Positions 7,792-36,561 of a stretch of 64,000 bases of DNA are shown here, in pieces. The position numbers were made by a program, and so were the translations under genes. Source of the stretch: Amphiscolops sp. MND2022 (taxonomy: Eukaryota); the NCBI GenBank assembly GCA_964187785.1, contig OZ076409.1, positions 78,246,001-78,310,000 on the forward strand, read 5' to 3'. Below the pieces are notes generated by a model. The model ran no database searches. It was not told the origin of the DNA and saw nothing but the letters and a program-made list of their open reading frames with translations. How positions within the stretch are numbered: position 1 is the first letter of the stretch; each line of letters opens with the position of its first letter.

Positions 7792-9123
7792 TGGGGAAAA
7801 GACCTTTTCGCGAAAGTAAGGTGTAAAAGTTTTAGGGGAATCGAAAATCAACAACAACTTGACAATTCTTTCCTGGCTTTGGAAATATTTAATCCAAATT
7901 TTGTTCGAATTGGACATGTTTGACCTGCCAAGCAATCAGATGATATGCATTTTGATAGATTGAAAAACTGGGCAATGCAATCGTTATTCTATGAAGGCTG
8001 ACTAAATTTTTAAATGAGAAAAATTAGAGAAGTTTCTTCCAGTCATTGGGTCAATCATTGTTACAGCGTCCAATAAGACCATAACTAAAAACCCTATCCT
8101 ACTTGCTTCAATTCAGCAAAAACTCATCATTTGAACAAGAGTGACAGATCAAGACCTAAAATCTTAAGAGAAGACTCACTTTTCTGATTTCTTGAGTGAA
8201 GTATTAGAAAAAATGCAACAGAAGCGTATCATCAACTTTTGTGAGAATATCGAATTTTGAAACCCCGAAATTTGAGTTCAGATCAAAGATGTCATGAATA
8301 TATCAAAAAACAATTACAAAGTACATGCTATCTGCAGGCAGGGCAAACGTGCAGATCAAACGTGCTTGATAGCTTTTTCAAAAAGCCTTAGATACCCTTG
8401 ATTACGATGTCTTTCCAAAGATTATGAAACAGTACGCATTTGGGGAATTAAAGTTTGATATAATACAACACTATCTTGAGAGTCAAGCCACTTTGCTCAT
8501 ACAATGATTGAACAAGTGAACATGCCAATGAAAGCGTTCCGAAACGTCGGATTCTGACGGTATTTTTTCTCCCAACTATTACAGAACTGTCGGAAAAAGC
8601 AAATGATTGAAGAACAGTTTGCGAAAAATATACAATTAAAGCCATGGAATAAAAAATTTTTGCCCTTTTGTCGACGCAGATACTGAAATAACTACGTGTA
8701 TTGAAAACCTATGTGCCTAGTTTGGTTCCCGGGCAAGGTCTAGAAGAGCACTAATGATCATACTTCGTCCTTTTTTGATGTACATGTTTCTAAAAGATTG
8801 ACGTTTTGGTTTTCATTGATACTAGATACTTGATTGTCTAATTTAATGAAACTGCTCTTTCTATAACTACCCTTTCTATATAACATCCAAATAAACTAAT
8901 TTTTGTTTCTTTTTTTTTAAACGTCTCATAGCCAGAATGGACTGTGTCAAAATATATTCAACACAAAAACAAAATTATTGCCCTGTTCCTTGCTTTTCCG
9001 AAGTTTCACAGCATGTTAATTATAGGTGAACCACCAGTTCTGGTCATGTTTTCTCACTGCCAGAGATATATACGAATTGTTTCAAGACGTTGCTGTGGAC
9101 CCATCGGACATCTGAAACTCAAA

Positions 9124-9205
9124 ATGGTGACCCTCCGGACAAACCTACCATGTGAATTGGCTAAACTTTTTGGAAGCTATGTAGTGAATAGCTGGAAGCT
9201 GCTGG
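9124..9205 (+). CDS. ABHD13: ABHD13-like hydrolase, putative coding exon 1 (MVTLRTNLPCELAKLFGSYVVNSWKLL)
   Basis: A phase-1 GT donor at 9206 fits the phase-1 acceptor at 13659 and gives an N-terminus of about the expected length. The donor (GTGTGC) is weak. Confidence 0.5.
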
Positions 9206-9481
9206 GTGTGCAACATGCTACACGATGCTCCTTGTCAGCATTTCAGCCAAAATTGCTTCTGATACTCTGTTGATTAAAACAGATACAAAAATTCGATTAT
9301 ACAATGTCAAGAAAAAATAATACGTATCACCTAGGGTGGACAGCGAACCGTACTGGTCCGCGGTCCGCAGCCCACACCTCAGCTAAAACCGGTCCGCGCG
9401 CATTTGTGTATTTTGTCTAGTTGAGTTTGTTTGCGCATTCTATTATTCTGTATATTCTGTAAGTATTTCAGTTGTGTAATT

Positions 9482-12400
9482 ATGTCTTCAAATAAACGGC
9501 CGCGTTACGACGACCTCTATGTAATAAGCAATGACCGTGCCAAATGCAAACAGCCAGATTGCAATGCAAAAATCGGGAACCAGTCTCCCTCTTAATAATT
9601 ACAAGAACAAGCACCCACGGGAACTGGAGGAATATTTCAAGAAACGCTCACCTGATCAACAAGAAGTCACCTCACTTTTCAATGCAACTGCCAACGCAGA
9701 AAAATTCAATGAGAAGGAGAAGCTTGCTATTGCATTTTGTATGGGTAAACACAGCCTCCCGTTCTCATTTTTCGATGACAAGGTTATGAGATGGGGCTTT
9801 GGAATCACTTATTGTGGACATGCAGTGCGACGATCCGTCGAGGACCTGCATGCGCGCATTCAGGAGTCCGTAAATGAAGCTTTAAAGAATATCATATGAT
9901 AAAGGGTTCACTCGCCATCGATGGCTGGGCGAATCCAACAACAAGTGTTGAAACCCGTTGGAACTCAATTTATGACAGATTGGTCGATATAGTGAATCGA
10001 AATGTATGCGAAACCCATGAAGAATTGCAACTTCTGCAATGAGCTATAACCTTGGTCAAACCGATAATCGATTTACTGAACTACTCACGGGCAAACAAGG
10101 CATCTTGGTTCACATTTCTCCGGAAATTTCGTGACCTGAAACAGGATGCAGCTTCTCCAGCAATAGTGGCATCTGCAATGGCGAAGTACGAGAAATATAC
10201 TGAGAACAACATTTCGGCTATAATTGACTCCATCTACATTGGTGCTGAACTCAATTCACGTTCTCAAGCTTGGCTTAGGTCACTTTCTCCGGACCGAAGT
10301 AACGACCTGGATCATGTCCAAATGATGAATTCTATTTCAGCAACTGCTGAAGATGATGTGCTGCGGAAGCTGTATAAATTCCGAGAATTGGTACTGGATA
10401 GACTCTTTCTCAGCGAAGCAGAAGTTGAGCGGGTCTTTTCGGCACATATGAACATTCATATTCCTTGCAATATTCCCACAATAAGTGAGTACAGTACCAA
10501 GCTGTCTTTTTCGCGTATATTTCACAACTTCATAACGGCTATTTTATTTTGTTATCATGTCCTGGATCATGTCCAAATGATGAATTCTATTTCAGCAACT
10601 GCTGAAGATGATGTGCTGCGGAAGCTGTATAAATTCTGAGAATTGGTACTGGATAGACTCTTTCTCAGCGAAGCAGAAGTTGAGCGGGTCTTTTCGGCAC
10701 ATATGAACATTCATATTCCTTGCAATATTCCCACAATAAGTGAGTACAGTACCAAGCTGTCTTTTTCGCGTATATTTCACAACTTCATAACGGCTATTTT
10801 ATTTTGTTATCATGTCCTGGATCATGTCCAAATGATGAATTCTATTTCAGCAACTGCTGAAGATGATGTGCTGCGGAAGCTGTATAAATTCTGAGAATTG
10901 GTACTGGATAGACTCTTTCTCAGCGAAGCAGAAGTTGAGCGGGTCTTTTCGGCACATATGAACATTCATATTCCTTGCAATATTCCCACAATAAGTGAGT
11001 ACAGTACCAAGCTGTCTTTTTCGCGTATATTTCACAACTTCATAACGGCTATTTTATTTTGTTATCATGTCCTGGATCATGTCCAAATGATGAATTCTAT
11101 TTCAGCAACTGCTGAAGATGATGTGCTGCGGAAGCTGTATAAATTCTGAGAATTGGTACTGGATAGACTCTTTCTCAGCGAAGCAGAAGTTCAGCGGGTC
11201 TTTTCGGCACATATGAACATTCATATTCCTTGCAATATTCCCACAATAAGTGAGTACAGTACCAAGCTGTCTTTTTCGCGTATATTTCACAACTTCATAA
11301 CGGCTATTTTATTTTGTTATCATGTCCTGGATCATGTCCAAATGATGAATTCTATTTCAGCAACTGCTGAAGATGATGTGCTGCGGAAGCTGTATAAATT
11401 CTGAGAATTGGTACTGGATAGACTCTTTCTCAGCGAAGCAGAAGTTGAGCGGGTCTTTTCGGCACATATGAACATTCATATTCCTTGCAATATTCCCACA
11501 ATAAGTGAGTACAGTACCAAGCTGTCTTTTTCGCGTATATTTCACAACTTCATAACGGCTATTTTATTTTGTTATCATGTCCTGGATCATGTCCAAATGA
11601 TGAATTCTATTTCAGCAACTGCTGAAGATGATGTGCTGCGGAAGCTGTATAAATTCCGAGAATTGGTACTGGATAGACTCTTTCTCAGCGAAGCAGAAGT
11701 TGAGCGGGTCTTTTCGGCACATATGAACATTCATACTAAGATCAGAAGCTCACTCTCGCCGGATATTGTGGAGAAGGTCCTGTACGTTCGTTATATTTAC
11801 TCAAAGCAGAGCCGAGCATCTCTTGCAATATTCCCACAATAAGTGAGTACAGTACCAAGCTGTCTTTTTCGCGTATATTTCACAACTTCATAACGGCTAT
11901 TTTATTTTGTTATCATGTCCTGGATCATGTCCAAATGATGAATTCTATTTCAGCAACTGCTGAAGATGATGTGCTGCGGAAGCTGTATAAATTCTGAGAA
12001 TTGGTACTGGATAGACTCTTTCTCAGCGAAGCAGAAGTTGAGCGGGTCTTTTCGGCACATATGAACATTCATATTCCTTGCAATATTCCCACAATAAGTG
12101 AGTACAGTACCAAGCTGTCTTTTTCGCGTATATTTCACAACTTCATAACGGCTATTTTATTTTGTTATCATGTCCTGGATCATGTCCAAATGATGAATTC
12201 TATTTCAGCAACTGCTGAAGATGATGTGCTGCGGAAGCTGTATAAATTCCGAGAATTGGTACTGGATAGACTCTTTCTCAGCGAAGCAGAAGTTGAGCGG
12301 GTCTTTTCGGCACATATGAACATTCATACTAAGATCAGAAGCTCACTCTCGCCGGATATTGTGGAGAAGGTCCTGTACGTTCGTTATATTTACTCAAAGC

Positions 12401-13192
12401 AGAGCCGAGCATCTCTTGCAATATTCCCACAATAAGTGAGTACAGTACCAAGCTGTCTTTTTCGCGTATATTTCACAACTTCATAACGGCTATTTTATTT
12501 TGTTATCATGTCCTGGATCATGTCCAAATGATGAATTCTATTTCAGCAACTGCTGAAGATGATGTGCTGCGGAAGCTGTATAAATTCCGAGAATTGGTAC
12601 TGGATAGACTCTTTCTCAGCGAAGCAGAAGTTGAGCGGGTCTTTTCGGCACATATGAACATTCATACTAAGATCAGAAGCTCACTCTCGCCGGATATTGT
12701 GGAGAAGGTCCTGTACGTTCGTTATATTTACTCAAAGCAGAGCCGAGCATCTCTTGCAATATTCCCACAATAAGTGAGTACAGTACCAAGCTGTCTTTTT
12801 CGCGTATATTTCACAACTTCATAACGGCTATTTTATTTTGTTATCATGTCCTGGATCATGTCCAAATGATGAATTCTATTTCAGCAACTGCTGAAGATGA
12901 TGTGCTGCGGAAGCTGTATAAATTCTGAGAATTGGTACTGGATAGACTCTTTCTCAGCGAAGCAGAAGTTGAGCGGGTCTTTTCGGCACATATGAACATT
13001 CATACGAAGATCATAAGCTCACTCTCGCCGGATATTGTGGAGAAGGTCCTGTACGTTCGTTATAATGGTCGAAACTTCGACATGTGTCCACAACAAACGA
13101 ACCTTACTGTAGACAAGCAGCAGAGGACGTGGAGGAATTGGAGCAACCTGTACAGGTTTCAGATTTCGAGGAGGAAGAGATGTTGTAACTGA
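9482..13192 (+). pseudogene. hAT transposase, fragmented
   Basis: N-terminal CKQPDC (BED-like), LPFSFFD, SLAIDGWAN (first catalytic Asp motif), SEAEVERVFS..IHTKIRSSLSPD (hAT C-terminal dimerisation motif); frameshifts and stops. Confidence 0.9.
10306..13063 (+). repeat. Near-perfect tandem array: six 255-bp and three 338-bp chimeric units plus a final transposase-only copy
   Basis: CCTGGATCATGTCC starts at 10306, 10561, 10816, 11071, 11326, 11581, 11919, 12174, 12512 and 12850. Confidence 0.97.
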
Positions 13193-13659
13193 GTTTGTTA
13201 TTTGCAAAAACAAATTTAATTTGTTTTGCTTTTGACAATTTAATTTTGATTATTACACTAAATGTTTTGGTCCGTGCCCTCGGCCCGCAGTCCGCACCAC
13301 GTGGTCCGCAGTCCGCGTTTTTGCTGCGGACCGATCCTATGTCCACCCTAGCGTATCACGAATCAAACCCCTATAATTTGCAGCAAGTGTTTTACATCTT
13401 CGTCAAAAAGTGAGTAAAGTCCATTGCAAAAATTCCGTAAATTTGAAATTTCTATGAAAATAGATAACAAAAAAATAATAAGAAATAAATGAAAAAGAAA
13501 ATGATAACAAAGGCAAAATTCATCATCATTTGCTCCCAGCTTGTTCAGTTTTCTAGAATTTCCGTAATCGCTGACTTTACATAGATCGGGAAAATTGAGC
13601 AAAGGTTTAATTGAATAGAGATTTACTGAAAAGAATCAAGTAGTATGCTGTTGTTTGAG

Positions 13660-13817
13660 CCTACTGCATTCTGCCTCTGCTGTTGATATTTTACGAGTAC
13701 AAAGCAGCTTACTTGTTGTTTTTCGTGGTCCTGTCCCTAGCTGGAGTCATTTACTTCGGTCAAGACATGATGCTTTTCCATGCCGACTATCCTCCCAACT
13801 CACGACTTTTCGTCAAG
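13660..13817 (+). CDS. ABHD13: ABHD13-like exon 2 (hydrophobic anchor region)
   Basis: YCILPLLLIFY..LAGVIYFGQDMMLFHADYPPNSRLFVK resembles the ABHD13 AGILYKFQDVLLYFP..SSRLYV segment; AG/GT bounded. Confidence 0.8.
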
Positions 13818-15320: not shown

Positions 15321-15453
15321 GGGAAGGAAGGACAATCAAAACTTCCTCCGGGAGGTTTAGAATCGGTTTCATTCCTCACAGAAGACCTCATTATCCTGCA
15401 TGCATATTTACTCAAAGCAGAGCCGAGCATCTCGTGCAATATTCCCACAATAA
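15321..15453 (+). CDS. ABHD13: ABHD13-like exon 3
   Basis: TTTCAG acceptor; ESVSFLTEDLIILHAYLLKAEPSISCNIPTI; GTGAGT donor; phase-compatible with both neighbours. Confidence 0.88.
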
Positions 15454-15710
15454 GTGAGTACAGTACCAAGCTGTCTTTTTCGCGTATATTTCACAACTTA
15501 ATAACGGCTATTTTATTTTGTTATCGAGATAAACATCGAGTAAATGAGATCTGTGAAACTGAACTTCCTGAAGTTTCGTTTATACTTGGTTAAAATTTTT
15601 AAGTTTGAGAACATTCAAGGACGAATCGTTCCCTCAATTTCAAGACTTGCTTGGTTAAAATACTACTGTATGATGTTAATTCTATCTGGCTGTTGAATGA
15701 GAATAATGAG

Positions 15711-19320: not shown

Positions 19321-19500
19321 TAAATTTTCATGGCAATGCAGGCAACATCGGCCATCGGATCCCGAATGCAGTCGAGATGGTGACTAAGCTGGGGTGCAAT
19401 GTCTTGTTGGTGGAGTACAGAGGATTCGGAAAGAGCACAGGAACGCCCTCTGAGAGTGGTCTCTACCTCGATGCCAAAGCCGCTATCAATTTTGTGAAAG
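19321..19500 (+). CDS. ABHD13: ABHD13-like exon 4
   Basis: NFHGNAGNIGHRIPNA..LLVEYRGFGKSTGTPSESGLYLDA, characteristic of ABHD13; AG/GT bounded. Confidence 0.95.
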
Positions 19501-20148
19501 GTGGTCAATATTCGTCTACGATCGTTTTCCTCATTTTTCTTCAGATGTGAAACTTTTTTGTACGTTGTTTTGTTTGATAGTTTGTTTACTTTGCGCGGGA
19601 TGATTTTACCACGTTCAAGGTTTCTCCTCCGTATTTTCTCAGGAAATAAGATCTACTAATAACGAGTGTTACACAAATATCGACCGACCCGATTATATAA
19701 GTCGAGCAAGATAAATACATTTGACAAACGAGAATTTTTCATTCGTTTGCGTTTTTTTTTTCTGAAAAACAATCAGGTAGGAAATATCAAATAAATTCTC
19801 CGGACGTTTAACAGAAACTCCTCACTACAATAAATATATTAGAAAAATTTTGAAAAAACGCAAAGAAATGCGCAAATAAAACTCACAACTTCAAGCCTGG
19901 AAGAAAAATAGTCTGATCATTTAAACTTTTCGAATTCGAACTTCATGACTTGGAATAGATATCGTCTTATGTGAATGAAATCTGTCATTTATGTGACTGA
20001 CAGTACAAACGTGCTGGATTTGTTTTATTAGGTGATGAGAAATGAGGAAATTGACGTTTCACTGGTCATTAAAGACTAACTGGTTTTCAGTTCTATGGTC
20101 AGAGACAAGAAGAGTTGTAAGGCTCATTCTATATCCAAACTGATTGTC

Positions 20149-20637
20149 TTTTTAGTCGGCGCTTTTCTTAAGAAAAGAGCCCGACTATTACAGTCACTCG
20201 TTTTTTTTTCTTTTTTTATTTAAGACAGACTCGAAGCGACGAACGTTAAAATTAACGTTCAACTACTAAATACAGTACTAAACTACTGGACCGGTAAAGG
20301 CAAACGGGGAGCGCATTCATTTACTTTTTAAACGTTACCTACAAGCCCGGACGAGACTCAAGTTCCCCCCCCCCTTTCGATTTTTTTTCGGCACTGTGAG
20401 ACTTTTTTCGAAATTTTTTTAATGTCCCCAAAGGGTCCCCCCTTTGAGTTTTTTGTTATTTTGCTACAGAATGCGTGTTTATAAATCAAAAAGGGTCCCC
20501 CTTTTACATTTTTCGGCACTGTGCGGCATTTTCCGAAAGATTTTTTTTCGAAAATTTCAAGTTTTTTTTCCAAAAAATATGTTTTGCGCTTTTTGAGCCT
20601 TAGATATAGCGCCGACTTGAGACGTTCCCGTCTTGTT
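20149..20637 (+). mobile_element. HINE-like element
   Basis: TTTTTAGTCGGCGC ... GCGCCGACTTGAGACGTTCCCGTCTTGTT. Confidence 0.72.
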
Positions 20638-20747
20638 AAGTTTGTATACTAAATGGGTTAACTAATGACTTTCAATTAAAATAACTTCTTATTCGGCAAT
20701 GAAATGAAATACAAAGCAGAAACAGAAATGAAAGACAAGGAAATATA

Positions 20748-21315
20748 AACAAGCCGGGAACGCCAAAGTCGGTGCCATATCTAATGCTCAAAAAGCGCAA
20801 CATTTTTAAAATTTTAAAACGGGACCCTTTGGGCTTTTTGAAACTCCAGTTTGTGACAAAACATGGAAAAATTGAAGGGGGAACCCTTTGGAGACATTAA
20901 AAAATTTTTGGAAAAAAGAAACTTGAGAACTTTGAACAGTATCACAGTGCCGAAAAATGTAAAAGGGGAATCCTTTGGATTTTTTAACATCCACTTTGTT
21001 GCATATTATCGAAACAATTGAAGGGGGCTCTTTGGTGTAATAAAAAAATTCGGAAAAAGTCTCATAGTTCCATAGAAAAAATCTAGTTTAAAAACACCAG
21101 GATAAAGATAGTATGGTGGACCCTTCGTATGTTTTCGAGGTTGTGGACGTCAGTTTTGTTTTTGTTTTGGACGAGGTTCTGACATTTCTAGTATGTTTTG
21201 GATATCAAGTATCAAGTTCAGCTTCAACAAATGAACAAAAAATGGACCTCACGCGTCTAAAAAAACTACCCAATGTAAGAGTCGGGCTCATTTTCCACTA
21301 AAATGCACCGAGTAA
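20748..21315 (-). mobile_element. HINE-like element
   Basis: AACAAGCCGGGAACG..AGTCGGTGC is the reverse complement of the family 3' end. Confidence 0.68.
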
Positions 21316-21615
21316 CAAAAACAGTGGAAAGTAGCGGCATCAAAGTTTTAGGTCCGGCTGACTGACAGAAAATGGTTTGAAAAAAAAATAAATTAAAATT
21401 ATGTTTTACTGCTTAATGATTCCCTTGAATTTGATCTAACGTGTACATCGATGCGCTTAGATTTGACTGGTTGATTCCATAAATGTTACCTATAGATGAA
21501 TCCCAAATGTTAAAATTAATGCAGTATTTCAAAAACCAGAAAGTTACGTTTCATCTTCTCGACAAGGGAGTATCTTCGAAGTGTTTCAAAGCTTTGTTTT
21601 TTTCCGATTTTTCAG

Positions 21616-21817
21616 AAAAAACAGACTTGAATCCAACCAAGGTCATCCTATTCGGCCGCTCGTTAGGAGGAGCCGTTGCGATTCATTCCGCTTTCATGGC
21701 TGGATTCTCTGGACACAGCCAAGATCTGGCAATGCTGGTAGTCGAAAATACCTTCACGCGAATTGCCGACATGGCTGGAGCATTGTTTCATATACCTGGA
21801 TTTAATTGCCTTCCTCG
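21616..21817 (+). CDS. ABHD13: ABHD13-like exon 5 (nucleophile Ser, GRSLGG)
   Basis: KVILFGRSLGGAVAIH..VVENTFTRIADMA; AG/GT bounded, phase 1 to phase 2. Confidence 0.95.
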
Positions 21818-22581
21818 GTTGGTGGAACACGGACTTGAAACTGTATTATGGATCTTTTGATGCTTCTGATAAACAAAAACGATTTAATCGAAGCGCTGCA
21901 ATTGCTAGGGCACTATCGGTCCTAGGAATGAATTATACCTGTAGGTACCTAACGATAGTTATACGATATATTATACCTACGATAGTTATAAACCATCTAG
22001 GTTTAATAATGAATGCATTGCGTGGATTTAGTTTCTAATGATGGGCAGAAACGCGAAGGGTCCAACGAATTGCTGCGATGATTTAGGAAGCCTTTTGCAC
22101 AAAGCACACTGTATGAAAAAAATAAAAGCAGACAAGTTATCCAGCCAATCGTTCGAGTCAGCGGCCGGCATGCTTAAAGCTCAAAGACAGCAAAATTGTT
22201 AGAAAAATTTAGGGTCGTTTACTTTAAGTTTTATCAAATCTGAGAGTTTCAGAAACGGGGGACCTTTGGGCTCCGAAATTGTTTTTCTTCAACAGGAAAC
22301 ATCAAAAACCCAAATTTGTGGAGATTTTTTTCCAATGAATTGCACAGTACCGAAAAATAAAGGGATGACAGTTCAAGCTCGAAAACGTCGCGTTTCAATA
22401 GTTTTGACATTCGTTTCTCAGGAACTGGTACTATAAGCTGAAAAAAACATGCTCTTTCAGATATTTTACACCATTCTCTGCTAACAGTTGAAAACCCTAA
22501 GGTTTCTCAGTTTTTGACTAAATGAAGCTCAAATCATGGTGCAAGCAAAACAATTAGATTACTAACCATGATGGTTTTCAG

Positions 22582-22738
22582 CGTGTTCTACAAGAACAAG
22601 TTTGCGAGTTGTGAGAAGATTGGTCAGGTGCACATGCCCTCGCTGTTCATCAGTGGCCAAGCAGACCAACTTGTGCCACCTCACATGATGGCCTCTCTCT
22701 TCAGCAAGTGTCCAGCCAGCAAGAAACGCCTCCTGAAA
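22582..22738 (+). CDS. ABHD13: ABHD13-like exon 6 (catalytic Asp)
   Basis: YKNKF..MPSLFISGQADQLVPPHMM..KKRLLK; TTTTCAG acceptor, GTAAGC donor. Confidence 0.95.
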
Positions 22739-22874
22739 GTAAGCTACTAAGAGCATGGCTGAACAGAGTGCTGCTGGTGCAATGTTCTTTCAGCTCCAAG
22801 CAATGCATGTGAAACCTTTTTGTGATTCAAAGTGATTCTGTCAAGACCATGTCTATGAAACGGATATAATATAC

Positions 22875-24801
22875 TGTCGCAGGCTGCCGCCTGTGATGGT
22901 ACAAGGATCACTACTACCGCAGAAGGACAGGAAATAGCGGCCGGAACTCTACCAATATATTAGAGGTAAACATTAAAAACACAAACTTTGCTATTATTTT
23001 TTAGTCTACAAGTTGTACCTGTTATCGTTGCGAATTTTACACATAGTATAAAGTTTGTTGATATTAGTCCGTTAATGCCAACATTTGAAAATTCAGATGC
23101 TGTATTGATAATTTTAAAAGCTAGAAGTGCAGTATTAACACGCTGTTATAGCAATAGATAGGCAGCTAGAAAGCGTAAAGGAAACGAGTTCAAGTGAACG
23201 TAACTCCAATTCCGGAGACGTCACTTGAGCTCAACCTGTTAGCCAATCATATTCATCCATTTGAGTAATAGTAGTGCTGTATTTAATTAATGGCCGGTTT
23301 AGGCCATATGCCGGAATTTCACCTTTATCTATTGGCGCTTTAGTCAAACGGCCGGTTCCGGCCTTAATGTTCAGATGAAAGAATATTAATGCGAGCACTG
23401 TTGTGTTTCGTTTAATAGTAGTCTAATCACGTTGCTGTACTAATTAAACGTTCATTTTAGCTAATTGGCGTTTTATTTTATCCATTCCAATATTAGGCCG
23501 AATAAGGCCATTTGCCTGACTTCTATCCTCTGTTGCTGTGACCAATTGGACAGTGGCCGGTTGAGGCCCCTTTTCAATACTATTATTCAGATGCTAATTA
23601 CAATCATTTAGTATACTTTAAATGTCATGTATAATTACAAGTACGTCGTAAAGACTCATTTACCTTTTGAAATTAATTGGTGTAATCAATACCAATGTAA
23701 GATGTTGCTACCAATATTAGTCCAAAGGACATGTCTGACCATATTTACTAGTTGACACGTGGAATCTGTGTGCATATTATATAAAGGAAAATATGTGTTG
23801 TTACATGTAACATTGCTGTATACAAGTTGATCTAGCCTGCTAACGGGGCACGTGCCGACACGAGATTGTCAGCATTCCTGAAGTATTAGCGGCGTAAACA
23901 TTTTAATCGATGCTATTTGATGTACCGTGTGCCTTTTGAATACTTGTTATAGTTGTCAAAACAGGAATTTGATCGGCCGCGTGACCTTACGATCACGATT
24001 CGGCGGCACTTTGATGCTTGCATAGTCGAGTTAAGTCAGGTGCTTTCGGAATGTGTTTGTAACATTTTTTGGCTGTTTGCGTCATGTTTATCCCGCCCAA
24101 GGAAGTATATATAGGGGCAACTTCCTTTGGGTGGACACAATTTTGTTTTGGGTGGACACAACAATCTCGTTAACAATCATCAATTCTGTTTTCCGGTTTT
24201 AATAGTTTAACTATTTAACCCGGTTTAGTCTTAATGCCTACTACTAGAAAACAAAAGAAGGCAAGGAAATCTAGAGGATTAGAGATTCCCTCTGACATTG
24301 AAAACCTTGACATAATGTTAGGTGAAAATCACTTCAATGACATGAGGAGAGACGAAAGCCTCGATGGAACTTCCATTAGAAGGCAGGAAAGTGTTACAAG
24401 CAATAACTTAGAAAATGAGGAAATGAATCTCCATTCTGATCATAGAAATCCCGAAACTGGGACTAGTGCCGGTTACGACCGAACCACAGCGAGTATAGAT
24501 TCTCAAGCTGAGATCAATAAGTTATCGTGTGAACTAAACTCTAGAATATCTAGGGAGATGGATGAGATGATGAACAGCGTTAGTTCTCAAATCCAGAGAG
24601 CCATAAGTGATGCCATCAATAACCAAGTTTTGCCACAAATTCAAAACGTTATTATGGCTGGTTCAGGACAAGAGACTAGAAGGGGATGGGAGAGATCCGA
24701 CGAGAGACCGGAAAGTTATTCCGAAGTTCAGTATAACGCGAAAACTAGAACTACCCTCAATAATGAACACGGTGATAGAATACATCGTAATGTTCATGAC
24801 A
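22875..24801 (+). repeat. 5' LTR (1927 bp)
   Basis: Near-identical to 37259-39197 (about 15 substitutions by eye plus one 14-for-26-bp replacement); TATA-like TATATATAG at ~24106. Confidence 0.96.
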
Positions 24802-25928
24802 TGGTGACAGGAGACAACGAATCTCCAAATCAAGTTCCTGAGTTTCTCACAGGACGAATCTCATCCAGAAATCATCTCGACAGGTCCTTCGAGGACATCA
24901 ACCTCGACACGACGATCCCAGCACAAGAGAGAATCGCTACGGCTGCTGACTCCGACCCCATCACCCGACTGGCAGACGTCTTGACTACAATGCAAAATAG
25001 ACCGACAGCCCAACAACTCACCATACGCCCAGTCAACTCAAATACCATGACATTCGATAGCAAAAGTGAGAAATTCGAGCTGTTCGAAGACCTATTTCAC
25101 ACTATGATCAAGATGCAGCCAGAAATGACTGAGCAAATGAAGATCAATCACTTCCACTCTTTATTGAGGAAGAATGCTCTCCAGACGTTCAGAAATATCA
25201 ACTCAAGCAACCGACAAACTCTAGAGGACGTATTAGTCATCTTTAGACGGAAATACGTCAAGCCCGAGTCACAAGCGACTGCCAAACATAAATGGCACCG
25301 TCTAGTCTTCGATCCCAATACGATGAAGCTGCCTGATTTTCTCGAAGAATTGAACCAGGGAGCCGAGAAGGCGTTTGGCGATCATGCACAGAAAATGATT
25401 GACAGCTTGCTCTACGCAAAGCTGCCACCTAAGTTGAAGCGATCTGTCAACATGGCCAGATTAGAAAATGGCTCATATGATGAAATTGTTGCTCATTTGG
25501 AGAGAGAGTTGGAACTCAATGCCCTTGAGGAATCAGATGACCTACCAAAGGCCACAATGACCTCCTCATCTATAAAACCTAAAACTCCTCTGTCCACAGG
25601 GCAACTGTCCGATATCACTTGCAATTACTGCAAGGAAAAGGGCCACATGGTCAAGGACTGCGAAAAACTGAAAAAGAAAAAAGAAAAAGATGCCCAACAA
25701 GGCAAGTCGACACAGAAGAAAACATATCCGGAGTGTGGCACTTGTGGGAAAAAGAACCACCCGGAGGAGAGATGTTGGCAAGGTGCTGGTGCACATCTTA
25801 AACCCAAACGCACTAGACCTGATGACTCAACTGAAAATAAGCCCAATCCAAAGGCTCAGAAACCTCAGACCAAACCGACATCATCGAGCTCCCAATCCTC
25901 ATATCCTAATGATGAGTCAAAAAACTAA
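24234..25928 (+). CDS. gag: Gag, 564 aa, two CCHC zinc knuckles
   Basis: CNYCKEKGHMVKDC and CGTCGKKNHPEERC; helical capsid-like core; intact ORF. Confidence 0.93.
   Translation: MPTTRKQKKARKSRGLEIPSDIENLDIMLGENHFNDMRRDESLDGTSIRRQESVTSNNLENEEMNLHSDHRNPETGTSAGYDRTTASIDSQAEINKLSCELNSRISREMDEMMNSVSSQIQRAISDAINNQVLPQIQNVIMAGSGQETRRGWERSDERPESYSEVQYNAKTRTTLNNEHGDRIHRNVHDMVTGDNESPNQVPEFLTGRISSRNHLDRSFEDINLDTTIPAQERIATAADSDPITRLADVLTTMQNRPTAQQLTIRPVNSNTMTFDSKSEKFELFEDLFHTMIKMQPEMTEQMKINHFHSLLRKNALQTFRNINSSNRQTLEDVLVIFRRKYVKPESQATAKHKWHRLVFDPNTMKLPDFLEELNQGAEKAFGDHAQKMIDSLLYAKLPPKLKRSVNMARLENGSYDEIVAHLERELELNALEESDDLPKATMTSSSIKPKTPLSTGQLSDITCNYCKEKGHMVKDCEKLKKKKEKDAQQGKSTQKKTYPECGTCGKKNHPEERCWQGAGAHLKPKRTRPDDSTENKPNPKAQKPQTKPTSSSSQSSYPNDESKN
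24802..24813 (+). promoter_or_regulatory. Primer binding site TGGTGACAGGAG (resembles tRNA-Leu-type TGGTGTCAGGAG)
   Basis: TGG directly follows the LTR-terminal CA. tRNA identity is inferred from memory of tRNA-Leu 3' ends, with one mismatch. Confidence 0.7.
25919..25925 (+). promoter_or_regulatory. -1 ribosomal frameshift slippery heptamer A AAA AAC
   Basis: Lies directly before the gag stop; the -1 frame is open from here to 26356; the same AAAAAACTAA occurs at the matching place in element 1 (~2527). Confidence 0.8.
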
Positions 25929-28900
25929 CTTCGCCACAACTCCAATATAACGAACTTTTATCTGTCCGACAATACATCAGATCGGACCCTCCAACGCAAA
26001 CCCTCCACCAATACAATCAGCAATTGATGGGCTATCCCTCTGTTGTCTGGCAGCAGCAGATGGAAAAAGCTACCATCATGACCTACAATAACACCCATTT
26101 ATTCCAGAAACCAATTCCTGTTTGGGACTCTGATTACACCACTACCTTCACCACCCGCTTCAGGCCCATTCCCCTAATCGATGATTACAATCCAACATAC
26201 ATCGATCCAGACTACGGCAGAGATCCCTATTGGGACACCGAGCTTTACAACCAAGATTCACTGCAATTTCAATATGTCCTGGACGATATTGACTATTATA
26301 ACAGAACAGTCCACGAGAACCCCCCATTACCCATAACAAGAAAACACGAGCACTAATCGAAAACTGGCAAATGAATGATGGTACAAACCACCCAGTGTTC
26401 CCAAACCCATTGGGGACCGAGAACCCTGAAAACAATGGTGAATCCACGCCACAATCATTATTAGATGAAAAACAATTCCAAAATGTACTCATCACCAGAG
26501 ATGGTGAACCAGACTGTATACCCCTGTCAACCAACATCAACCTCAAATGCAAGAAATGCATGCTTTATTTCCCAATGGACTTTGGGGAATTGACCATTGA
26601 TGGATTAATAGACACTGGAGCACTGTCCAGTGCAATCCCTGAAATGGACCTCCGGAAAATCCGCCTTCTATCTCCACAATCTGTTATCCGAGAAGGTCCG
26701 CCTCCGAACTTCCAAATCATGGTCGCTAATGGGCAACTGGAAACTCCTAAGAGTACCATCGAGCTCAAATTCGAAGTTGGTGACATTGAGTTCCATGAAA
26801 TCTTTATAGTAATGGAACATTTGACCGCACCAATCATTGGACTAATGTTCCTTCAGAGAAATCATACAGTGCTGGACATGAGACAAGGGATACTGAATTT
26901 CCCCTTCTTTTCAATGCAGCTCAAAACGGCTGACCATAAGTACACAAATGTATTAGAACCAATTCTCAACCCTATTGAGATAACAATTCCACCAAATGAT
27001 AAAGTCCTAATTAGGACCAATTCCCTACTCTACCCTGAGAATGCTGTCACTGGAATTTTGCAACCGAGCGACCTTCTACATGAGGAAGGCGACATCACAT
27101 TTTGCCCAGCTTTGGTCACTCTGAATGACGGCAATTTATTGATACCAGTGAACAATTTCACAGACCACCCTTATAAACTCAAAAAGGGACTACATATTGC
27201 CAATTTCTCTGTCATGACGCCAGAACAGATGAAGTATGTCGAACCGGTAGACCCGGCATCAACCTGGCACCTTTTGCAGAATGACCAGGAGCAAGCAGCC
27301 CATTATGTCAGCAGTCTCATCAAAACCAATAGAAATCCACAAAACTCCGAAAATTATTGGTTCCCAACTCCAGAAAACCCTGGAAAGCCTGAGGAACACA
27401 CACCTATACAAAAATGAATCCTACGCGAGTTACAGGCCTTACAGGACTTGGAGACACTCGACCCCACCACAGATGCAGAATCACGTGCAAAATTCTTAGA
27501 AAACTTCGACTGGAAAGATTCCACCCTTACTCCTGAAGAAAAGGAGAAAATTGAGGAATTGTTAGTGGAATTCCATGACATCTTTGCACGACACCGATTT
27601 GATATAGGCATGAACGAGGAATTCAAAGTGAAAGTGACACCTAAGGACGATTCCCCAGCCTATAGTCAAAGCCTTCTAGCTCCTATCAATTTGAAGGAGG
27701 ACATCCTAGTCGAATTAGCCATGTTACACAAATATGGCATCATCACCACCCTACCGTTCTCAAAATATGCGAGTCCAATATTTGCACAGAAGAAACCGAA
27801 CGGGAAACTCCGACTCTTGGTTGACTTGAGAAAAATCAACAACCTCATCTCAGATGATTATATCAACAACAATCATCCCGTCAGTACACTAGTTGATGCT
27901 GCCCAACACTTGGCAGGCGAAAAACTGTTCTGTAAATTAGACTGTTCGCAGGCATACCACTGCCTACCAATGGCCGACCAACGCTCAATCGAAATGTTGG
28001 CTTTCAATTTTGCCAGTCGCACATTCGCTTACCGACGCTTGGCACAAGGCCTTAGTCGGTCACTATCCGCATTCTCGAGTTTCATGAGGGAATACCTCGA
28101 CAAAGTCATTAAAGCGGATCAGTGTGCCCAGTATGTGGACGATATCGGCATCGCAGCCAATGATGTCGACCACCTCATGACGAACCTGAGAGCCACGTTC
28201 AAATGCATTCAGGAAGCAGGCCTTAAGTTGACAATGCACAAATGTCACTTCGGTGCAAAAGAAATTGATTTTCTCGGACGGACTATTACCCCACAAGGCG
28301 TCAAACCTCAGAAACAGAACATGCAAAACTTTCTGGAAAAGACCAAATTCCCGAAGTCGAAAAAGGCTTTACAGCGCTATTTGGGATTCCTAAACTATTA
28401 CAGGAATTATGTCCCAAGACTCTCCGAACGCCTTGCTCCATTCTACAAGATGCTCAAAAGTGACGAAAAGGTCCTAGTATCGAAAGAATTAGTCCAACAA
28501 TTCGAAGGAATCAATAGAGCACTAGACAAATGTTGCGACCTGGCCCTACAACAACCCATTCCGAACAAACAAATAGCACTAATGACTGATGCAAGTTTTG
28601 GTGCAGCCGGGTACGCGGTCCTAATTGAAGACGACCCAAGTCAGAAATTTACATCACTCAGAAAATCGTATGCACCGGTCGCATATGGATCAAAAACTTT
28701 CACCCCAGCACAGATCAAGATGTCAATTTATGCCAAGGAATTCCTTGCAATTTATTTTGCATTCAAAGAATTCGGACAAATCTTCTGGGGTGCGCCGAAA
28801 CCGGTCATCATCCTTACGGACAACAAAGCTGTCACGAGATTTTTCCAAACGAAAATAATACCCCCAGCCCTGTGGAACGCGTGTGATTATTTCATTCAGT

Positions 28901-31130
28901 TCAATTTTGTCATAGCACACATCCCAGGGGCACAAAATACAGCCGCCGACTTTTTGTCCCGATTGGAAGCAGATCCAAAGGACAAATTGGTGATGAAAAT
29001 TCGTGAAGATGTACAAACACTAGCAATCGAAATCAACGTCCAATCCGCAGGTGTGACGCAAGAAGAACAAATCTTCTACACCAATGACGACGACGAGACA
29101 GAGGAACAGTATTGGGCAAGAAAAGAAGCAATTAGGAAAAATCCAACAACTGATGAGCCCACTGTTACTATACAAACTCTGTCAACAAATCTGGTCAAGC
29201 AACACCCCGATATACAAGTCCGATTGAGGAGAACGAACCAGATCATTATCGAGCAATCCAAGGATGCGGTACTACAACAATTGAAAGCAAAACTGCTTCA
29301 TGAAGAGTATTCAGAAAATCTACTACACCAGGATGCCCGATATAGACATTACGCAAACAATCTGGAACGAATTTTACTAAAGGACGAAATCCTGACAAGG
29401 CAATATTTCGATGAAACAGGGAATGTTAAATACCATCAAATTCTACTCCCGCAACATTTACTCCAGGAATTGCTCCAATCCCTTCACGGGACAGCGCATA
29501 AACATCCTGGAATTTCAAAAATGCTGCAGGAAATTCGACAGAGGTATTACTACCCTAACATGGCTAAACACGTCAGAAAGTGGGTAGAAGGGTGCGAACA
29601 ATGTGCCAGAGACAAAAGAGTCCCTAACCAACGATCACACCTGAGCTGCTCAACTTGCCCGAATGGGACCTCGGACCTGAAGACGCCATGCAAATAGACC
29701 TATTGCCGAATCTTCCCCCAAGTGGTGGGTATGAAAACGTCTTAACAGCAATTGATGTATTCTCCAGATATTTGTTCGCCTATCCCCTTACGGACACATC
29801 AGCGATCAAAGTAGCAAAAGCGCTCATTGACATCATGACTAAACACTCATATCTACCAACGACTCTTATCACTGATAATGGTACTGCATTTACTTCTACA
29901 ATTATTGCGGAGGTTACGCAGATTTTGGGCATCACACTCAAATGTGCAACGACAAAACACCCGCAGACAATTGGGAAATTGGAGCGAACCCATGCCTCAT
30001 TGAAAACAAATCTCAAAATGGCATGTGGGGAATATCGCCGACAGTGGCACAAATACTTGCCATTAGCAGTACTGAATTATAATACTAGTTATCACGCCAG
30101 CATCGGTTGTGAACCGACGAGAGTATTCCATGGAAGAATTCCATTTAATATCTTGGATCACAAACGTGGAAATAATCCAAATGAGCAGATCAACCCCACA
30201 ACCGAATTTGCTAAAGAAATCCAAAACCGGACAAAAATCCTAATTGACAAAACGAAGCAGAACATTATGCAGTCGTATATGAAGTACAAAGAATATTACG
30301 ACCGCAAAGCAAAAGCTGCTCCATTGAAGGAGAATGATTACTGTTTCGTCTTACAGCCGAAAGCGGATCATCAGGGATCAAAATTTCCATTCCGCGATTA
30401 CCGTTGGGTTGGATCATTTGTAGTCCAAAAAGTTTTGCCAAATGAAAACTATATAGTACGACGGATCAATACGAACAAATCTCAAATTTTGCATCGCATT
30501 CGCCTTAAGAAGTTCGTCCCCAATCAACCGCTTGAGGATAATTTCCGAGAACAACGTCTGCAGCCAGACGAAGAAATTGTCATTCCGCAAGATGACCTAT
30601 ACGCCATAGCGTGGGAAACAGATTTTGGCGAGCAGCTAGGTACACGAGACAACGAGCCTATTCCGACTAGCGTGCCGAATGGCGAACAACCGAATGCGGC
30701 ACAACCGAATACAAGTGACGCACACGAGAATGAAGAGGATTATGTAATCACGAGTGATGAATCAAATCTTGCCGATCGTGCGTCGCATAGCCGGAATGAA
30801 CGATTAATTGATGACGTCACTACAAGAAATTAAGCTAGTGAACAGTCTAGAAATGAAGAACCTGATTGGCCGAATCCGGCCATTTCCCCAAAAAGCCATG
30901 AAAAATCTTTGCCGGATACGGCAGACAGCCTAAAAGACAAAGAAATTTTACCCGATGAAAATTTAAGAACTGAAATCGATGCACAAAATTCTCCGAAAAG
31001 GGGGGATGATATTATCGTGCCCGAAATATCTGAAAACGATGCTAGAAATGAAAGTCTGAGCCCTAGAGGAGGGAAATATAACCTCAGACCTAACCCTAAC
31101 CCAAACTACTCAGAAGACTTCAGATACTAA
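25919..31130 (+). pseudogene. pol: Pol (protease, dUTPase-like spacer, RT, RNase H, integrase), broken by two frame breaks and two stops
   Basis: LIDTGA, YVDD, MTDAS, HKHPG..CEQC, QIDL..ITDNG..LER. Frame breaks near 26320-26370 and 29630; stops at 27415 and 30831. Confidence 0.95.
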
Positions 31131-31361
31131 GGATTGAATTTTCCCGGAAATGGGAATTCTTTTCTTTTATCTTTGTTTTAAGCCCCTCTGAGAATTTCTT
31201 TTGAATTAATACTGGGGCATTTCAAAGGATCCCATACAAAAATGGAATAAATATGGGATCAAGGCAACGAAGAAACAAAATCAAGAGCAAATGAGAAAAC
31301 AAAACAATGAAAGAAATGAACAAAGTTTACAGTCTGAAAGTACATAAATACATATGTACAT

Positions 31362-34300: not shown

Positions 34301-35689
34301 TCAGTCTCGTTGAAAGATTCTAACCCTCTACTTTCTTGGCCAGCACTGGATCCTTCAGAGGTGTCAGTCCCTGATCCAGAACAGTATTCAGCCCGCGAAC
34401 TATCTTCCGAATCACTTTGCAGCCCTGGGCTGGGAGTTTGAGCCCTTGGTCGGATCTTGAAGTGGTCAATTCGGGCACTGGAAGTGACGGGGGCCCCCCT
34501 AACCGCTCCGATTACCATCTGCTCCATGGTGGAGTAGGACATTTTCAAGGTCTCGTCTGTAAGGACCCTTAGGAGATGATAGATTTGTGGCTCCGTGAAC
34601 GACACAGTTCTATGACCGAGCGGGAAGGTGATAGTGCTGGCATCATCATCAAAATACTGTTTCAAAATGGCCCTACTACGGCCGGAAAGCTCCCTGATCT
34701 TGGGGTCCTGAGCTGCTGAAGTGGAAGGACGCATGGAATCAGGAATTGCAGCGAAAGTATCAGTTGATGACCCTTCTCCTGCTGTGTCTGCTACATTACC
34801 TATTGGCAGGTAGGCGTACAATTGAGGAGCACTAGCCTGGCTAGATGTGTCACCGGCTTCTTCGGTTCCAGTCTCATCGCCCAACCACCTGACTTTTGGT
34901 GTTCCTGTTGGCAGCTTGGGGACATCACATAGGGAAGAGCTTTCGTCCGTTTCAATCTGGAGAAATGAGGCTGCGGACATTTCGGCAGGAGTCACGTTAG
35001 TGGGCAACAATTCCGGTAATATAGTCCTCGAGGAAGGAGCAATCGTTAGTCCAGTCTCTAACTGAGTCAAATTGAGCTCGTCGGTCTCACCGGCTACGCC
35101 TGGGGTAGGGGTACTAGTACGAAAGAGCGGCGTAGTAACCCGTGCCTCGATCCCCGTGGAAGAAGAACCCTCAGTTATACCTCTCCCAGTCTCTTGTTCT
35201 CCCATCTCAGAGTTCTCCGCAGTATGTCCCTCTGATTGCTGTTGGGCCTGTTCGAGGAGCTGAAGCTTTTCGTCGGCATAAGATGTTACGTCGACGTTGC
35301 TGTCTGTACTGCTGGGAGACCTTGTTGGCTTTATTGGAGGAAAAGGAGGAGGAGACAATTGTGATCCACGGACGGTGGAGGACGTACCCACAGAAACAAT
35401 CGTTTGTGTATGTTGGTCGGGAATGTCCGCTGCAGAGTTGGTTTGTGTTTGCGGTTCGTCTCCTGGCTGGTTTGCTAAACAAAAGGAGATGAAATTTGGC
35501 GGTGAGCTTCCTTGAAAAAAATCCATTTTACCGCATTAGAAAACTTCCGGAAGTGTTTGAAAATCTGAACGAAACGTGTTATCACGCGTTTACTAATGGA
35601 AACAGGAAGCATATTGTGAACGGATTTAACCCTGATCAAGTTAAATTTTAGTTCGGAATAAAAACAAACCAACCTTCAGAAGAAGACAT
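31362..35689 (-). CDS. Spliced antisense gene, 5 exons (35689-35674, 35474-33520, 33437-32952, 32874-32658, 32518-31362), 1276 aa: S/T/P-rich N-terminus, zinc finger, degenerate hAT-transposase-like body
   Basis: Four GT..AG introns (199, 82, 77, 139 bp), each phase-compatible, join the listed minus-strand ORFs into 3831 nt with no internal stop. Finger motif WCHTCKKNISVKTKGTLEILRHHRTEKH. Exon 1 is the least certain. Confidence 0.82.
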
Positions 35690-36561
35690 CCTGGGACTGA
35701 ATTGGATGTGAGAACGAGTCCTTGTCCGGCTGTAGAAGTTGATGGATATGGCCGAAAGCGGCTGGAGAAGGGGTTGCTCTGGGACGAAGAATCGGCTAAG
35801 AAGTGACGCGCGCGGGAAAATGAGTATCAGTCGAGAGGAAACAAATGGAAGATAATCAGAATTGAAATGGAATTAAAATTGGGTAGAAGAATTGAAGAAA
35901 TTGGAAAGTTGGAGTTCGTGGCTGAAGATTACTACCAGACTAATATTATGGATTATCTACATATTTATTCTGTACATGGAGTCTGCCAGCGAAGTGTACA
36001 AAGAACTTTATTATTTACAGCTTATTTAGTTAGAGGCCGGTTATGGCCGTTTACCCTGTTTTGTTTTGCCGTTTTGTCCAGTTACCCTAGTTACCCTTAG
36101 CTAGAATTTTCGCCATCTTGAATTATTTGGATTTATTAGTTTCGCCATTTCTTATTATTTAATTTTACAACTTATCGAAGCTTAACGCTGATTGGCTGAA
36201 GTCATTTTGAAAGAATTCCGCGTCGCGTGTCGTTAATTGCTATCAGGCAAACCGTTAATTACCCACTTGAAACGGATGAAGATAATATTTACAACTCAAG
36301 CGTCATTAACACCTCTCAGAGTGATGGTGCTGATGGGGGGTAAACACTGAGTTATCAAAGGATGCCGACTACGTATAAAATTCCATTCAGAAATGTTTAC
36401 GTCGGATCAGGGCAATTTACCGATAACTCGACCGCCAAAAACGAATTGCCGGGAAAAGGCCCGAGTCGACTAAAATTTTGAGTTGGTAAATTCATTCCAC
36501 TTTGAAATCTCACTCAAGCTAGTTAACTTTCCCAATCAGCAATATTGCTAAGAAACTCATA

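What the first reader, a model, noticed from the sequence alone, without database searches (positions are those of the whole stretch)
10306..13063. hAT transposon captured and amplified a piece of its host gene's exon 3
Each array unit joins transposase C-terminal DNA to sequence that matches ~15405-15525 almost exactly, i.e. the 3' end of ABHD13 exon 3, its GTGAGT donor and the start of the next intron, about 2 kb beyond the element's right end. There are nine captured copies in order S,S,S,S,S,L,S,L,L. Junctions show ATA microhomology and a small templated insert (ATC-ATGT-CCTGG), typical of templated end-joining repair. This is local exon capture followed by tandem amplification, with source and product both visible.
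Basis: seen in the sequence. Interest (0 to 1): 0.75.

Follow-up and report, generated by a model that had tools for sequence, protein, structure and literature searches.

The report
Exon piece amplified inside dead transposon
A DNA repair accident copied a short piece of a marine flatworm-like animal's gene into a dead jumping gene sitting in that same gene, and the piece then multiplied into nine tandem copies; this is a tidy, well-preserved example of a known process rather than a new one.

Summary
A dead, internally deleted hAT (9331-13351; 12-bp TIRs, 8-bp TSD) lies in intron 1 of an intact ABHD13-like gene of an acoel-like animal. It holds nine copies of exon 3/intron 3 DNA (source 15404-15525) in the order S5-L-S-L2. 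A second public contig (81,779 bp) with the same flanking ORFs encodes all three junctions but starts S-L, so the array is real and variable, and no transposed copy was seen. The founding unit L is a direct DUP-NML-DUP: 215 bp of transposon duplicated around 122 bp of host DNA, with a 3-bp microhomology and a templated 4-nt insert. That 215-bp direct repeat seeds unequal crossing-over. S is L minus 83 bp, not a second capture. About six unequal exchanges from an S-L root give the present order. So this works like a single-copy, cis, transposition-independent Pack-TIR; the element is the passive site, and one-step template switching cannot be told from tandem duplication followed by deletion. 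The unusual part: each unit brackets a TTTCAG acceptor and the real exon-3 donor, giving nine candidate cassette exons (one in frame, eight with stops). No RNA was available to test this. New variant of a known kind; modest interest.

The parts
9046..9205 (+). ABHD13-like coding exon 1 (ends phase 1, donor GTGTGC; true start may lie a little upstream)
   Evidence: tblastn with P0001; exon model
9323..9330 (+). left target-site duplication CGTATCAC
   Evidence: sequence
9331..13351 (+). non-autonomous hAT element in intron 1; 4,021 bp with the array, 1,477 bp without; 12-bp perfect TIRs at 9331-9342 and 13340-13351; subterminal GGTCCG/GTCCGC motifs
   Evidence: Pfam PF05699 20.2 bits on an L unit
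9482..10460 (+). broken transposase, 5' part: BED-like start, frameshift, DGW motif, internal deletion of about 113 codons, TRWNS motif, stop, C-terminal region up to SEAEVERVFS
   Evidence: tblastn with P0126, P0127, P0138
10306..10560 (+). unit 1, type S with C at unit position 77 (no stop)
10561..11580 (+). units 2-5, type S with T at position 77 (TGA); one private substitution in unit 4 (11192)
11581..11918 (+). unit 6, type L (transposon 11581-11795, host piece 11793-11914, insert ATGT 11915-11918)
11919..12173 (+). unit 7, type S with T77
12174..12849 (+). units 8 and 9, type L
12850..13064 (+). terminal native copy of the duplicated 215-bp transposon segment; differs from L at positions 77, 157, 165
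   Evidence: family member P0149 continues VRYNGRNF without host DNA
10341..10484 (+). candidate cassette exon in unit 1 (144 nt, phase 1-1, open in frame between exons 1 and 2); eight further candidates in units 2-9 carry stops
   Evidence: computed geometry only; no RNA evidence
13352..13359 (+). right target-site duplication CGTATCAC
   Evidence: sequence
13660..13817 (+). ABHD13-like exon 2 (158 nt; acceptor TTTGAG)
15321..15453 (+). ABHD13-like exon 3 (133 nt; donor GTGAGT, phase 1)
15404..15525 (+). source of the captured piece (50 nt exon 3 + 72 nt intron 3); differs from the array copies at 15434 (synonymous in the exon) and 15500
19321..40378 (+). ABHD13-like exons 4-7 (19321-19500, 21616-21817, 22582-22738, 40145-40378); the seven exons give an open 407-codon frame, 277 of 434 aligned positions identical to P0001

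Best explanation
A passive, transposition-independent capture in cis, followed by repeat-driven unequal recombination. (1, shown) A hAT inserted in ABHD13 intron 1 and decayed. (2, structure shown, pathway inferred) A break inside the element was repaired so that 215 bp of the element were duplicated around 122 bp copied from exon 3/intron 3, 2.3 kb downstream: a forward jump at a 3-bp ATA microhomology and a return by end joining with a templated 4-nt insert (direct DUP-NML-DUP; polymerase-theta-like scar). This made unit L. Whether the two junctions formed in one template-switching event or as a 2.7-kb tandem duplication later trimmed by a 2.3-kb deletion is open; I put it at about 55:45. 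(3, inferred) The 215-bp direct repeats flanking the insert allowed unequal sister/homologue exchange, which duplicated L. (4, shown by shared junction and variants) An 83-bp net deletion in the first copy made S. (5, inferred) About six further unequal exchanges, one of which carried the terminal copy's TGA into the S lineage, gave the present order; other haplotypes carry other orders. The array is most likely neutral intronic DNA.
For: All 9 of 9 units share one right junction with the same insert and the same C at 15500, and S and L share T at 15434, so there was one capture. Right-junction insert lies in a 9-nt match 5 bp away; 1 of 144 possible alternative 4-nt inserts (the observed one) reaches that length; the S insert lies in a 7-nt match, reached by 3 of 36 alternatives; a 3-bp microhomology arises by chance in 5.8% of random pairs. 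Geometry matches the directly oriented DUP-NML-DUP described in PMC6902434 (passages) and the tandem duplications with end-joining scars in PMC8654963 (passages). Tan et al. (PMC8277862, sections 7 and 8): 56.9% of animal Pack-TIRs lie within 15 kb of the source, hAT is the commonest carrier, nearly all are single-copy. Transposase is broken. Family member P0149/P0121 on another contig has native sequence with no host insert and shows the L-type states to be ancestral at 2 of 3 sites. Of 12 possible two-insert roots only CS-CL-TN reaches the window's order in 6 duplication/deletion steps; the other 11 need at least 7, and P0139 on the second contig begins exactly CS-CL. That contig also holds both flanks: exact ORF 7494-7823, a 2-residue variant of ORF 18359-18736 and a 1-residue variant of the element's 5' ORF. 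A separate 287-bp triplication of retroelement DNA at 1335-2188 shows that such amplifications are background here.
Against: No reads, no genome and no DNA of the second contig could be examined; its identity as an allele rests on protein records that share a contig length, and both flanking ORFs lie in repeat-derived DNA; 1 of the 5 distinct window ORFs found in the collection (6650-6880) showed no member on that contig. The microhomology (p about 0.06) and the S insert (3 of 36) are weak by themselves. The margin of the best root is a single step and the model allows only sister-type duplications and deletions up to 24 tokens. A role for a transposase supplied in trans in making the first break cannot be excluded (the left junction is 287 bp from the right TIR). 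Tan et al.'s single-copy cases typically show a small gap in the element, not a 215-bp duplication.
Confidence: 0.75

Rival explanations
1. Transposase-triggered capture: excision or nicking of the element by a transposase made in trans caused abortive gap repair from the sister chromatid, with a template switch to exon 3; the element is thus causally involved.
For: The element has intact TIRs and TSD and an internal deletion typical of abortive gap repair; the junction is 287 bp from the right end; Tan et al. list this route as one form of gap filling (PMC8277862 passages).
Against: No intact relative found: a search for 245-2000-residue relatives gave 0 hits at E<=0.001 among 1,108 candidates; the closest other copy (79-87% identical) is itself broken into short ORFs; the other relatives are 28-49% identical. 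No mobilised insert-bearing copy seen. Tan et al. found the transposition-independent route dominant.
Confidence: 0.15
2. The array is kept or tuned because it acts on ABHD13 splicing: each unit pairs a transposon-derived TTTCAG acceptor with the real exon-3 donor, making nine cassette exons (unit 1 adds 48 codons in frame; the other eight introduce stops), so unit number and order would set ABHD13 output.
For: Computed geometry: S 144 nt, phase 1-1; L 227 nt ending in TAA; 4 of 6 native acceptors of the gene are TTTCAG, while intron 1's own sites are TTTGAG and GTGTGC; the array supplies 9 of the 11 GTRAGT and 10 of the 13 TTTCAG motifs in intron 1. The in-frame unit 1 is present on both contigs. 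Tan et al. report that 30% or more of Pack-TIRs are transcribed as chimeras (section 10).
Against: The in-frame fit of S has a 1-in-3 chance; TTTCAG decoys occur in every intron counted (1-4 each); the order of units is explained by recombination alone; no chimeric ABHD13 protein appeared, though this species' ABHD13 is not among the listed hits either, so that blank is weak.
Confidence: 0.12
3. Assembly artefact: the array, or its copy number, is a product of mis-joined reads.
For: No reads could be laid on the region; units are 99.5-100% identical.
Against: All three junctions are encoded in a second contig (P0139); variants are phased with unit type (C77 with L, T77 with S); the junctions carry templated inserts; array and source differ at 5 of 337 positions.
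Confidence: 0.04
4. Single rolling-circle or onion-skin amplification of one excised circle.
For: Head-to-tail direct units inside one element.
Against: Two unit types in irregular order, a recombinant first unit (C77 with S junction) and the sharing of T77 with the terminal copy need several exchanges; C-to-T recurrence at CpG is unlikely here (0 of 22 substitutions in one LTR pair are CpG-type, 10 of 104 in another repeat pair; CpG o/e 0.86).
Confidence: 0.04

Closest known systems
Single-copy Pack-TIRs of animals (Tan et al. 2021, PMC8277862; abstract, sections 7, 8, 10, 14 and passages read; supplements not read)
   Same: Non-TE host DNA between the two ends of one TIR element; hAT carrier; source within 5 kb on the same strand of the same chromosome; short microhomology; exonic source; no sign of later transposition; captured size (122 bp) near their median of 224 bp.
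   Different: The element is duplicated (215 bp) at the insert instead of gapped; the insert is amplified nine-fold inside the element with two unit types; the source is the element's own host gene; their length-ratio filter (80-120%) would reject the whole array.
Directly oriented DUP-NML-DUP rearrangements (PMC6902434, passages)
   Same: Two duplicated segments separated by a single-copy region, one junction from the distal end of the first to the proximal end of the second, and one from the distal end of the second back to the proximal end of the first.
   Different: Hundreds of bases rather than kilobases to megabases; not Alu-mediated; followed by secondary amplification.
Polymerase-theta end-joining tandem duplications and templated insertions in C. 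elegans (PMC8654963, passages; PMC7368036, search listing only)
   Same: Tandem duplication of 100 bp-10 kb size class with minute microhomology and inserts copied from the flank.
   Different: Pathway dependence is untested here; the organism is an acoel-like animal.
Tandem arrays growing inside DNA transposons, e.g. Tetris of Drosophila virilis (PMC4079207, search listing and start of abstract only)
   Same: An internal 200-350-bp segment of a DNA transposon amplified head to tail.
   Different: Here the unit is a chimera with host exon DNA and, as far as seen, confined to one locus.
Multicopy Pack elements (Pack-MULEs, Ssk-FB4, Pack-hAT-N8_XT; as described in PMC8277862)
   Same: Host gene DNA inside a TIR element.
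   Different: Those moved after capture and show distinct TSDs; no such copy was seen here.

Membership tests
hAT superfamily | Short terminal inverted repeats | tested here: met
   Perfect 12-bp TIR CTAGGGTGGACA at 9331-9342 and 13340-13351, with subterminal GGTCCG/GTCCGC motifs
hAT superfamily | 8-bp target-site duplication (feature recalled) | tested here: met
   CGTATCAC at 9323-9330 and 13352-13359
hAT superfamily | hAT C-terminal dimerisation domain (PF05699) | tested here: met
   L unit 20.2 bits (cut-off 21.4), P0139 21.4, relative P0131 22.9; 5 of 9 aligned relatives match, 2 of 9 match DUF659, 1 of 9 weakly zf-BED. Profile against solved structures reaches Hermes only at E 0.34-0.37, below two unrelated hits
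hAT superfamily (autonomous member) | Intact DDE transposase | tested here: not met
   Frameshift, stops and loss of about 113 codons relative to P0127 residues 160-272
Pack-TIR (Tan et al. 2021) | Non-TE DNA of 100-5,000 bp between both ends of one TIR element | tested here: met
   122-bp insert in L, inside 9331-13351; criteria from section 14
Pack-TIR (Tan et al. 2021) | Unique parental copy at 90% identity or more, not itself a TE | tested here: inconclusive
   98.4% to ABHD13 exon 3/intron 3 and unique within the window; no genome held
Pack-TIR (Tan et al. 2021) | Internal sequence 80-120% of the parental length (their discovery filter) | tested here: not met
   The array spans 2,544 bp against a 122-bp parent; only the inferred single founding unit would pass
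Pack-TIR, gap-filling type | Source nearby in cis and microhomology at a breakpoint | tested here: met
   2,053 bp from the right TIR; 3-bp ATA
Pack-TIR, gap-filling type | Small gap in the element at the insert | tested here: not met
   215 bp of the element are duplicated instead
Pack-TIR, gap-filling type | Orthologous element without the insert in an outgroup or allele | not testable with these tools
   The second contig also carries the insert; no insert-free allele seen
Multicopy Pack-TIR (FoSTeST type) | Insert-bearing copies at other loci with distinct TSDs | tested here: inconclusive
   Element 5' ORF cluster has 2 members and L-ORF cluster 2 members, on the window's contig and on a contig that shares its flanks; protein records only, no genome search
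Direct DUP-NML-DUP rearrangement | Two direct duplications separated by single-copy DNA, joined by two junctions | tested here: met
   215-bp and 122-bp duplicated segments, about 2.34 kb skipped, 2,676-bp span
Polymerase-theta-mediated end joining | Minute microhomology and flank-templated inserts | tested here: met
   9-nt match for the right junction (1 of 144), 7-nt for S (3 of 36), 3-bp microhomology (chance 0.058)
Polymerase-theta-mediated end joining | Genetic dependence on polymerase theta | not testable with these tools
   Needs mutants

The most novel reading that the evidence does not exclude
The capture fused a transposon-derived acceptor to the host gene's own exon-3 donor, so the array is a run of nine chimeric cassette exons inside intron 1 of ABHD13 (one adding 48 codons in frame, eight acting as poison exons), and unequal crossing-over changes their number and order between haplotypes: a naturally variable splicing rheostat built from a Pack-hAT that never left its host gene.
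Probability: 0.12. Interest if true: 0.65.

Novelty: new variant of a known kind. Interest (0 to 1): 0.36.

Why it matters
It preserves, in 7 kb, the source, the founding junctions, a derived unit and at least two allelic states of a young repeat array, so the path from one repair error to a host-exon-bearing minisatellite inside a transposon can be read step by step. It suggests that captures which duplicate rather than delete element DNA leave a direct repeat that primes amplification, and that Pack-element screens with a length-ratio filter miss such cases. If the units are spliced, it would be a copy-number-variable set of poison exons; without that it is neutral intronic DNA and matters only as a case study.

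Tried and rejected
No whole genome is held for this window, so family copy number and genome-wide uniqueness of the source were not tested. Sequencing runs for 8800-15800: none was listed and no RNA holder was listed; this is no evidence either way, and no reads were laid. The JGI metagenome scan with P0139 gave 1 locus among 347 candidate stretches, a 40%-identical relative without flanks of use (L001). The search for full-length relatives of the C-terminal region (245-2000 residues) gave 0 hits among 1,108 candidates. Exact look-ups of window ORFs found 2 of 10 and 4 of 10; the misses include all exon 1, exon 2, exon 4 and exon 6 ORFs tried. P0127 alone matched no solved structure. Four look-ups of earlier findings of this scan returned nothing. 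Rejected: S and L as independent captures (shared right junction and variants); the source as a dispersed repeat (it is coding exon 3 by homology, and unique in the window); recurrent CpG mutation as the reason for shared T77; P0139 as a product of this window (the window's frame stops after 153 of its 214 residues). An inter-allelic origin of the founding unit (array and source from different haplotypes) would explain the 5 differences in 337 bp but could not be tested. In one search the exon-5 end was set at a non-canonical site; it was corrected to 21817. Literature searches for a captured exon amplified in tandem inside a TIR element (listings only) showed no such report; the library lacks most subscription papers, and the supplementary tables of PMC8277862, not read, may hold similar cases.
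Full report
Setting. The window is animal DNA. The best named relative of the gene at 9046-40378 is ABHD13-like of the acoel Symsagittifera roscoffensis (83% over exon 4; two unnamed proteins score higher, 95% and 86%), so the organism is probably another acoel (inference). Seven coding exons with GT-AG borders give an open 407-codon frame, 277 of 434 aligned positions identical to P0001. The gene looks intact. No genome is held for the window and no sequencing run was listed.

The element. A DNA transposon lies in intron 1 at 9331-13351, in the sense orientation, with perfect 12-bp TIRs and an 8-bp TSD. Its transposase is dead: a frameshift near the start, stops, and a gap of about 113 codons between the DGW and TRWN motifs relative to P0127. 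The C-terminal part scores 20.2 bits on the hAT dimerisation model (cut-off 21.4); a close relative passes the cut-off, and 5 of 9 aligned relatives match it. I file it as a non-autonomous hAT. Without the array it is 1,477 bp.

The array. L (338 bp) is 215 bp of element, 119 further bp of host DNA (15404-15525 with the shared ATA) and ATGT. S (255 bp) is 155 bp of element, TTC, host 15433-15525 and the same ATGT. The host piece is the last 50 (L) or 21 (S) nt of exon 3, the GTGAGT donor and 72 nt of intron 3. A second family member on another contig (P0149 and P0121, 79-87% identical) runs on as VRYNGRNF exactly like the terminal copy, so the insert is not element sequence.

One capture, not two. 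All 9 units share the right junction and a C where the source has A (15500); S and L share a T where the source has G (15434, synonymous in the exon). S is therefore L with a net 83-bp deletion.

Junction scars. The 4-nt insert at the right junction lies inside a 9-nt string that recurs 5 bp into the element; of 144 alternative inserts only the observed one reaches 9 nt. The 3-nt insert of S lies inside a 7-nt string that recurs 8 bp downstream; 3 of 36 alternatives do as well. The 3-bp microhomology of L has a chance rate of 0.058. Only the first is convincing alone; together they fit the end-joining scars described for tandem duplications in C. elegans (PMC8654963, passages). Dependence on polymerase theta is inferred, not shown.

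Geometry. In native coordinates the founding allele duplicates 215 bp, skips about 2.34 kb and duplicates 122 bp, across a 2,676-bp span. This is the directly oriented DUP-NML-DUP of human genetics (PMC6902434, passages). It can be made in one replication or repair event with two template switches, or by a 2.7-kb tandem duplication and a later deletion in the upstream copy. The second route is viable because exons 2 and 3 together are 291 nt, a whole number of codons, and because S shows that deletions do occur in this array. The sequence cannot separate the two routes, and neither needs a transposase. Tan et al. (PMC8277862; abstract, sections 7, 8, 10, 14 and passages) found that most animal Pack-TIRs are single-copy, 56.9% lie within 15 kb of the source, hAT is the commonest carrier, and transposition is mostly not involved. 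This locus works like those, except that the element is duplicated rather than gapped at the insert.

Why it amplified. The founding event left 215-bp direct repeats around the insert, a substrate for unequal exchange (inference). The variants record this: position 77 is C in unit 1 and in all 3 L units, T in the other 5 S units and in the terminal copy. T77 and the terminal copy's T165 are derived, judged by P0149. Recurrent CpG mutation is unlikely (0 of 22 substitutions in the LTR pair, 10 of 104 in a second repeat pair), so T77 moved from the terminal copy into S by recombination. Writing units as tokens and allowing in-register duplications and deletions, the root CS-CL-TN reaches the window's order in 6 steps; the other 11 of 12 possible two-insert roots need at least 7. 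The margin is one step, so this is a lead, not proof.

A second copy of the locus. The window's contig is 448,485 bp in the protein collection. Protein P0139 comes from a contig of 81,779 bp and reads through an S unit and then an L unit with no stop; the window cannot encode it beyond residue 153 of 214, though both of its halves match window translations exactly. It begins CS-CL, the inferred root. A contig of the same length holds the exact upstream ORF 7494-7823, a one-residue variant of the element's 5' ORF and a two-residue variant of ORF 18359-18736 in intron 3; the exon-5 ORF is on 2 contigs, the second not shown; ORF 6650-6880 showed only the window's contig. Six of 20 exact look-ups were found, covering five distinct ORFs. 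I read this as a second haplotype or individual at the same locus. It makes an artefact unlikely, shows that unit order varies, and gives no sign of a transposed copy. The link rests on contig length, and the DNA was not seen.

Timing. L differs from its two sources at 5 of 337 positions (1.5%); the 2,544-bp array has 1 private substitution; the two contigs differ at 3 of 697 codons in five ORFs found by exact look-up (a biased sample, counting the exon-5 ORF); the LTR pair in intron 6 differs at 22 of 1,940 positions. So the capture is older than the split of the two haplotypes, or came from a third haplotype, and the reshuffling is recent. A 287-bp triplication of retroelement DNA at 1335-2188 shows that amplification of units of this size is ordinary in this genome.

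Possible effect on the gene. Each unit has TATTTCAG 35 nt in and the true exon-3 donor further on. Introns 1 and 3 are both phase 1. The S candidates are 144 nt and symmetrical; unit 1 is open in frame, and the five T77 units carry TGA. The L candidates are 227 nt and end in TAA. Four of six native acceptors are TTTCAG, and intron 1's own sites are TTTGAG and GTGTGC. Against this: the frame fit has a 1-in-3 chance, TTTCAG decoys occur in all five introns counted, and recombination alone explains the order. No RNA could be examined, so I give it 0.12.

Novelty. Searches (listings only) showed no report of a host exon piece amplified in tandem inside a TIR element, but the library lacks most subscription papers and I did not read the supplements of PMC8277862. 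Each component is known: cis Pack-TIR, DUP-NML-DUP, end-joining scars, internal arrays in DNA transposons. The combination and the readable history are a new variant. Verdict: observation confirmed, interpretation partly supported, interest 0.36.

Noticed in passing
window 1335-2188: Three tandem copies of a 287-bp piece of a decayed LTR-retroelement ORF, differing by 5-8 substitutions pairwise; the surrounding 1-1460 is 92% identical to 6349-7794. A plain triplication with no foreign insert seen.
   Followed up: partly
window 22875-39198: A 16.3-kb LTR retrotransposon (gag/pol-like ORFs at 24219-30833) fills ABHD13 intron 6; its LTRs differ at 22 of 1,940 positions. The interior beyond 30.8 kb was not examined.
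   Followed up: partly
window 14372-14901: Foldback or MITE-like element in intron 2: AT-rich inverted arms of about 115 bp (90% alike) built from 15- and 40-bp subrepeats.
   Followed up: no
window 15814-21288 and 51457-54531: A dispersed family of 130-300-bp repeats with an AAAGGGTCCCC-like core in both orientations, 70-87% alike, plus a 26-bp minisatellite at 17005-17341.
   Followed up: no
window 9331-9342 and 13340-13351: The TIRs begin CTAGGG rather than TAGGG or CAGGG, which I recall as the usual hAT ends; the 8-bp TSD fixes this register.
   Followed up: no
window 9908-9977 and L001 ~50-215: The window's element and the 40%-identical relative L001 both lack the stretch that follows the DGW motif, and P0126 and P0138 have other internal gaps; this hAT clade appears mostly as internally deleted copies.
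   Followed up: partly
window 13648-13659, 9206-9211, 13818-13823, 21818-21823: Several ABHD13 splice sites depart from the commonest forms in this gene (acceptor TTTGAG; donors GTGTGC, GTTCGC, GTTGGT) by homology-based modelling; none is confirmed by RNA.
   Followed up: no
window 21616-21817: Exon 5 lacks a 23-residue stretch present in P0001 and longer ones present in P0002 and P0003: a length-variable loop in acoel ABHD13.
   Followed up: no
window 44090-49297 and 59895-62557: Further retroelement-like ORFs and a 91-bp duplication at 49088-49261 within an LTR-like pair.
   Followed up: no
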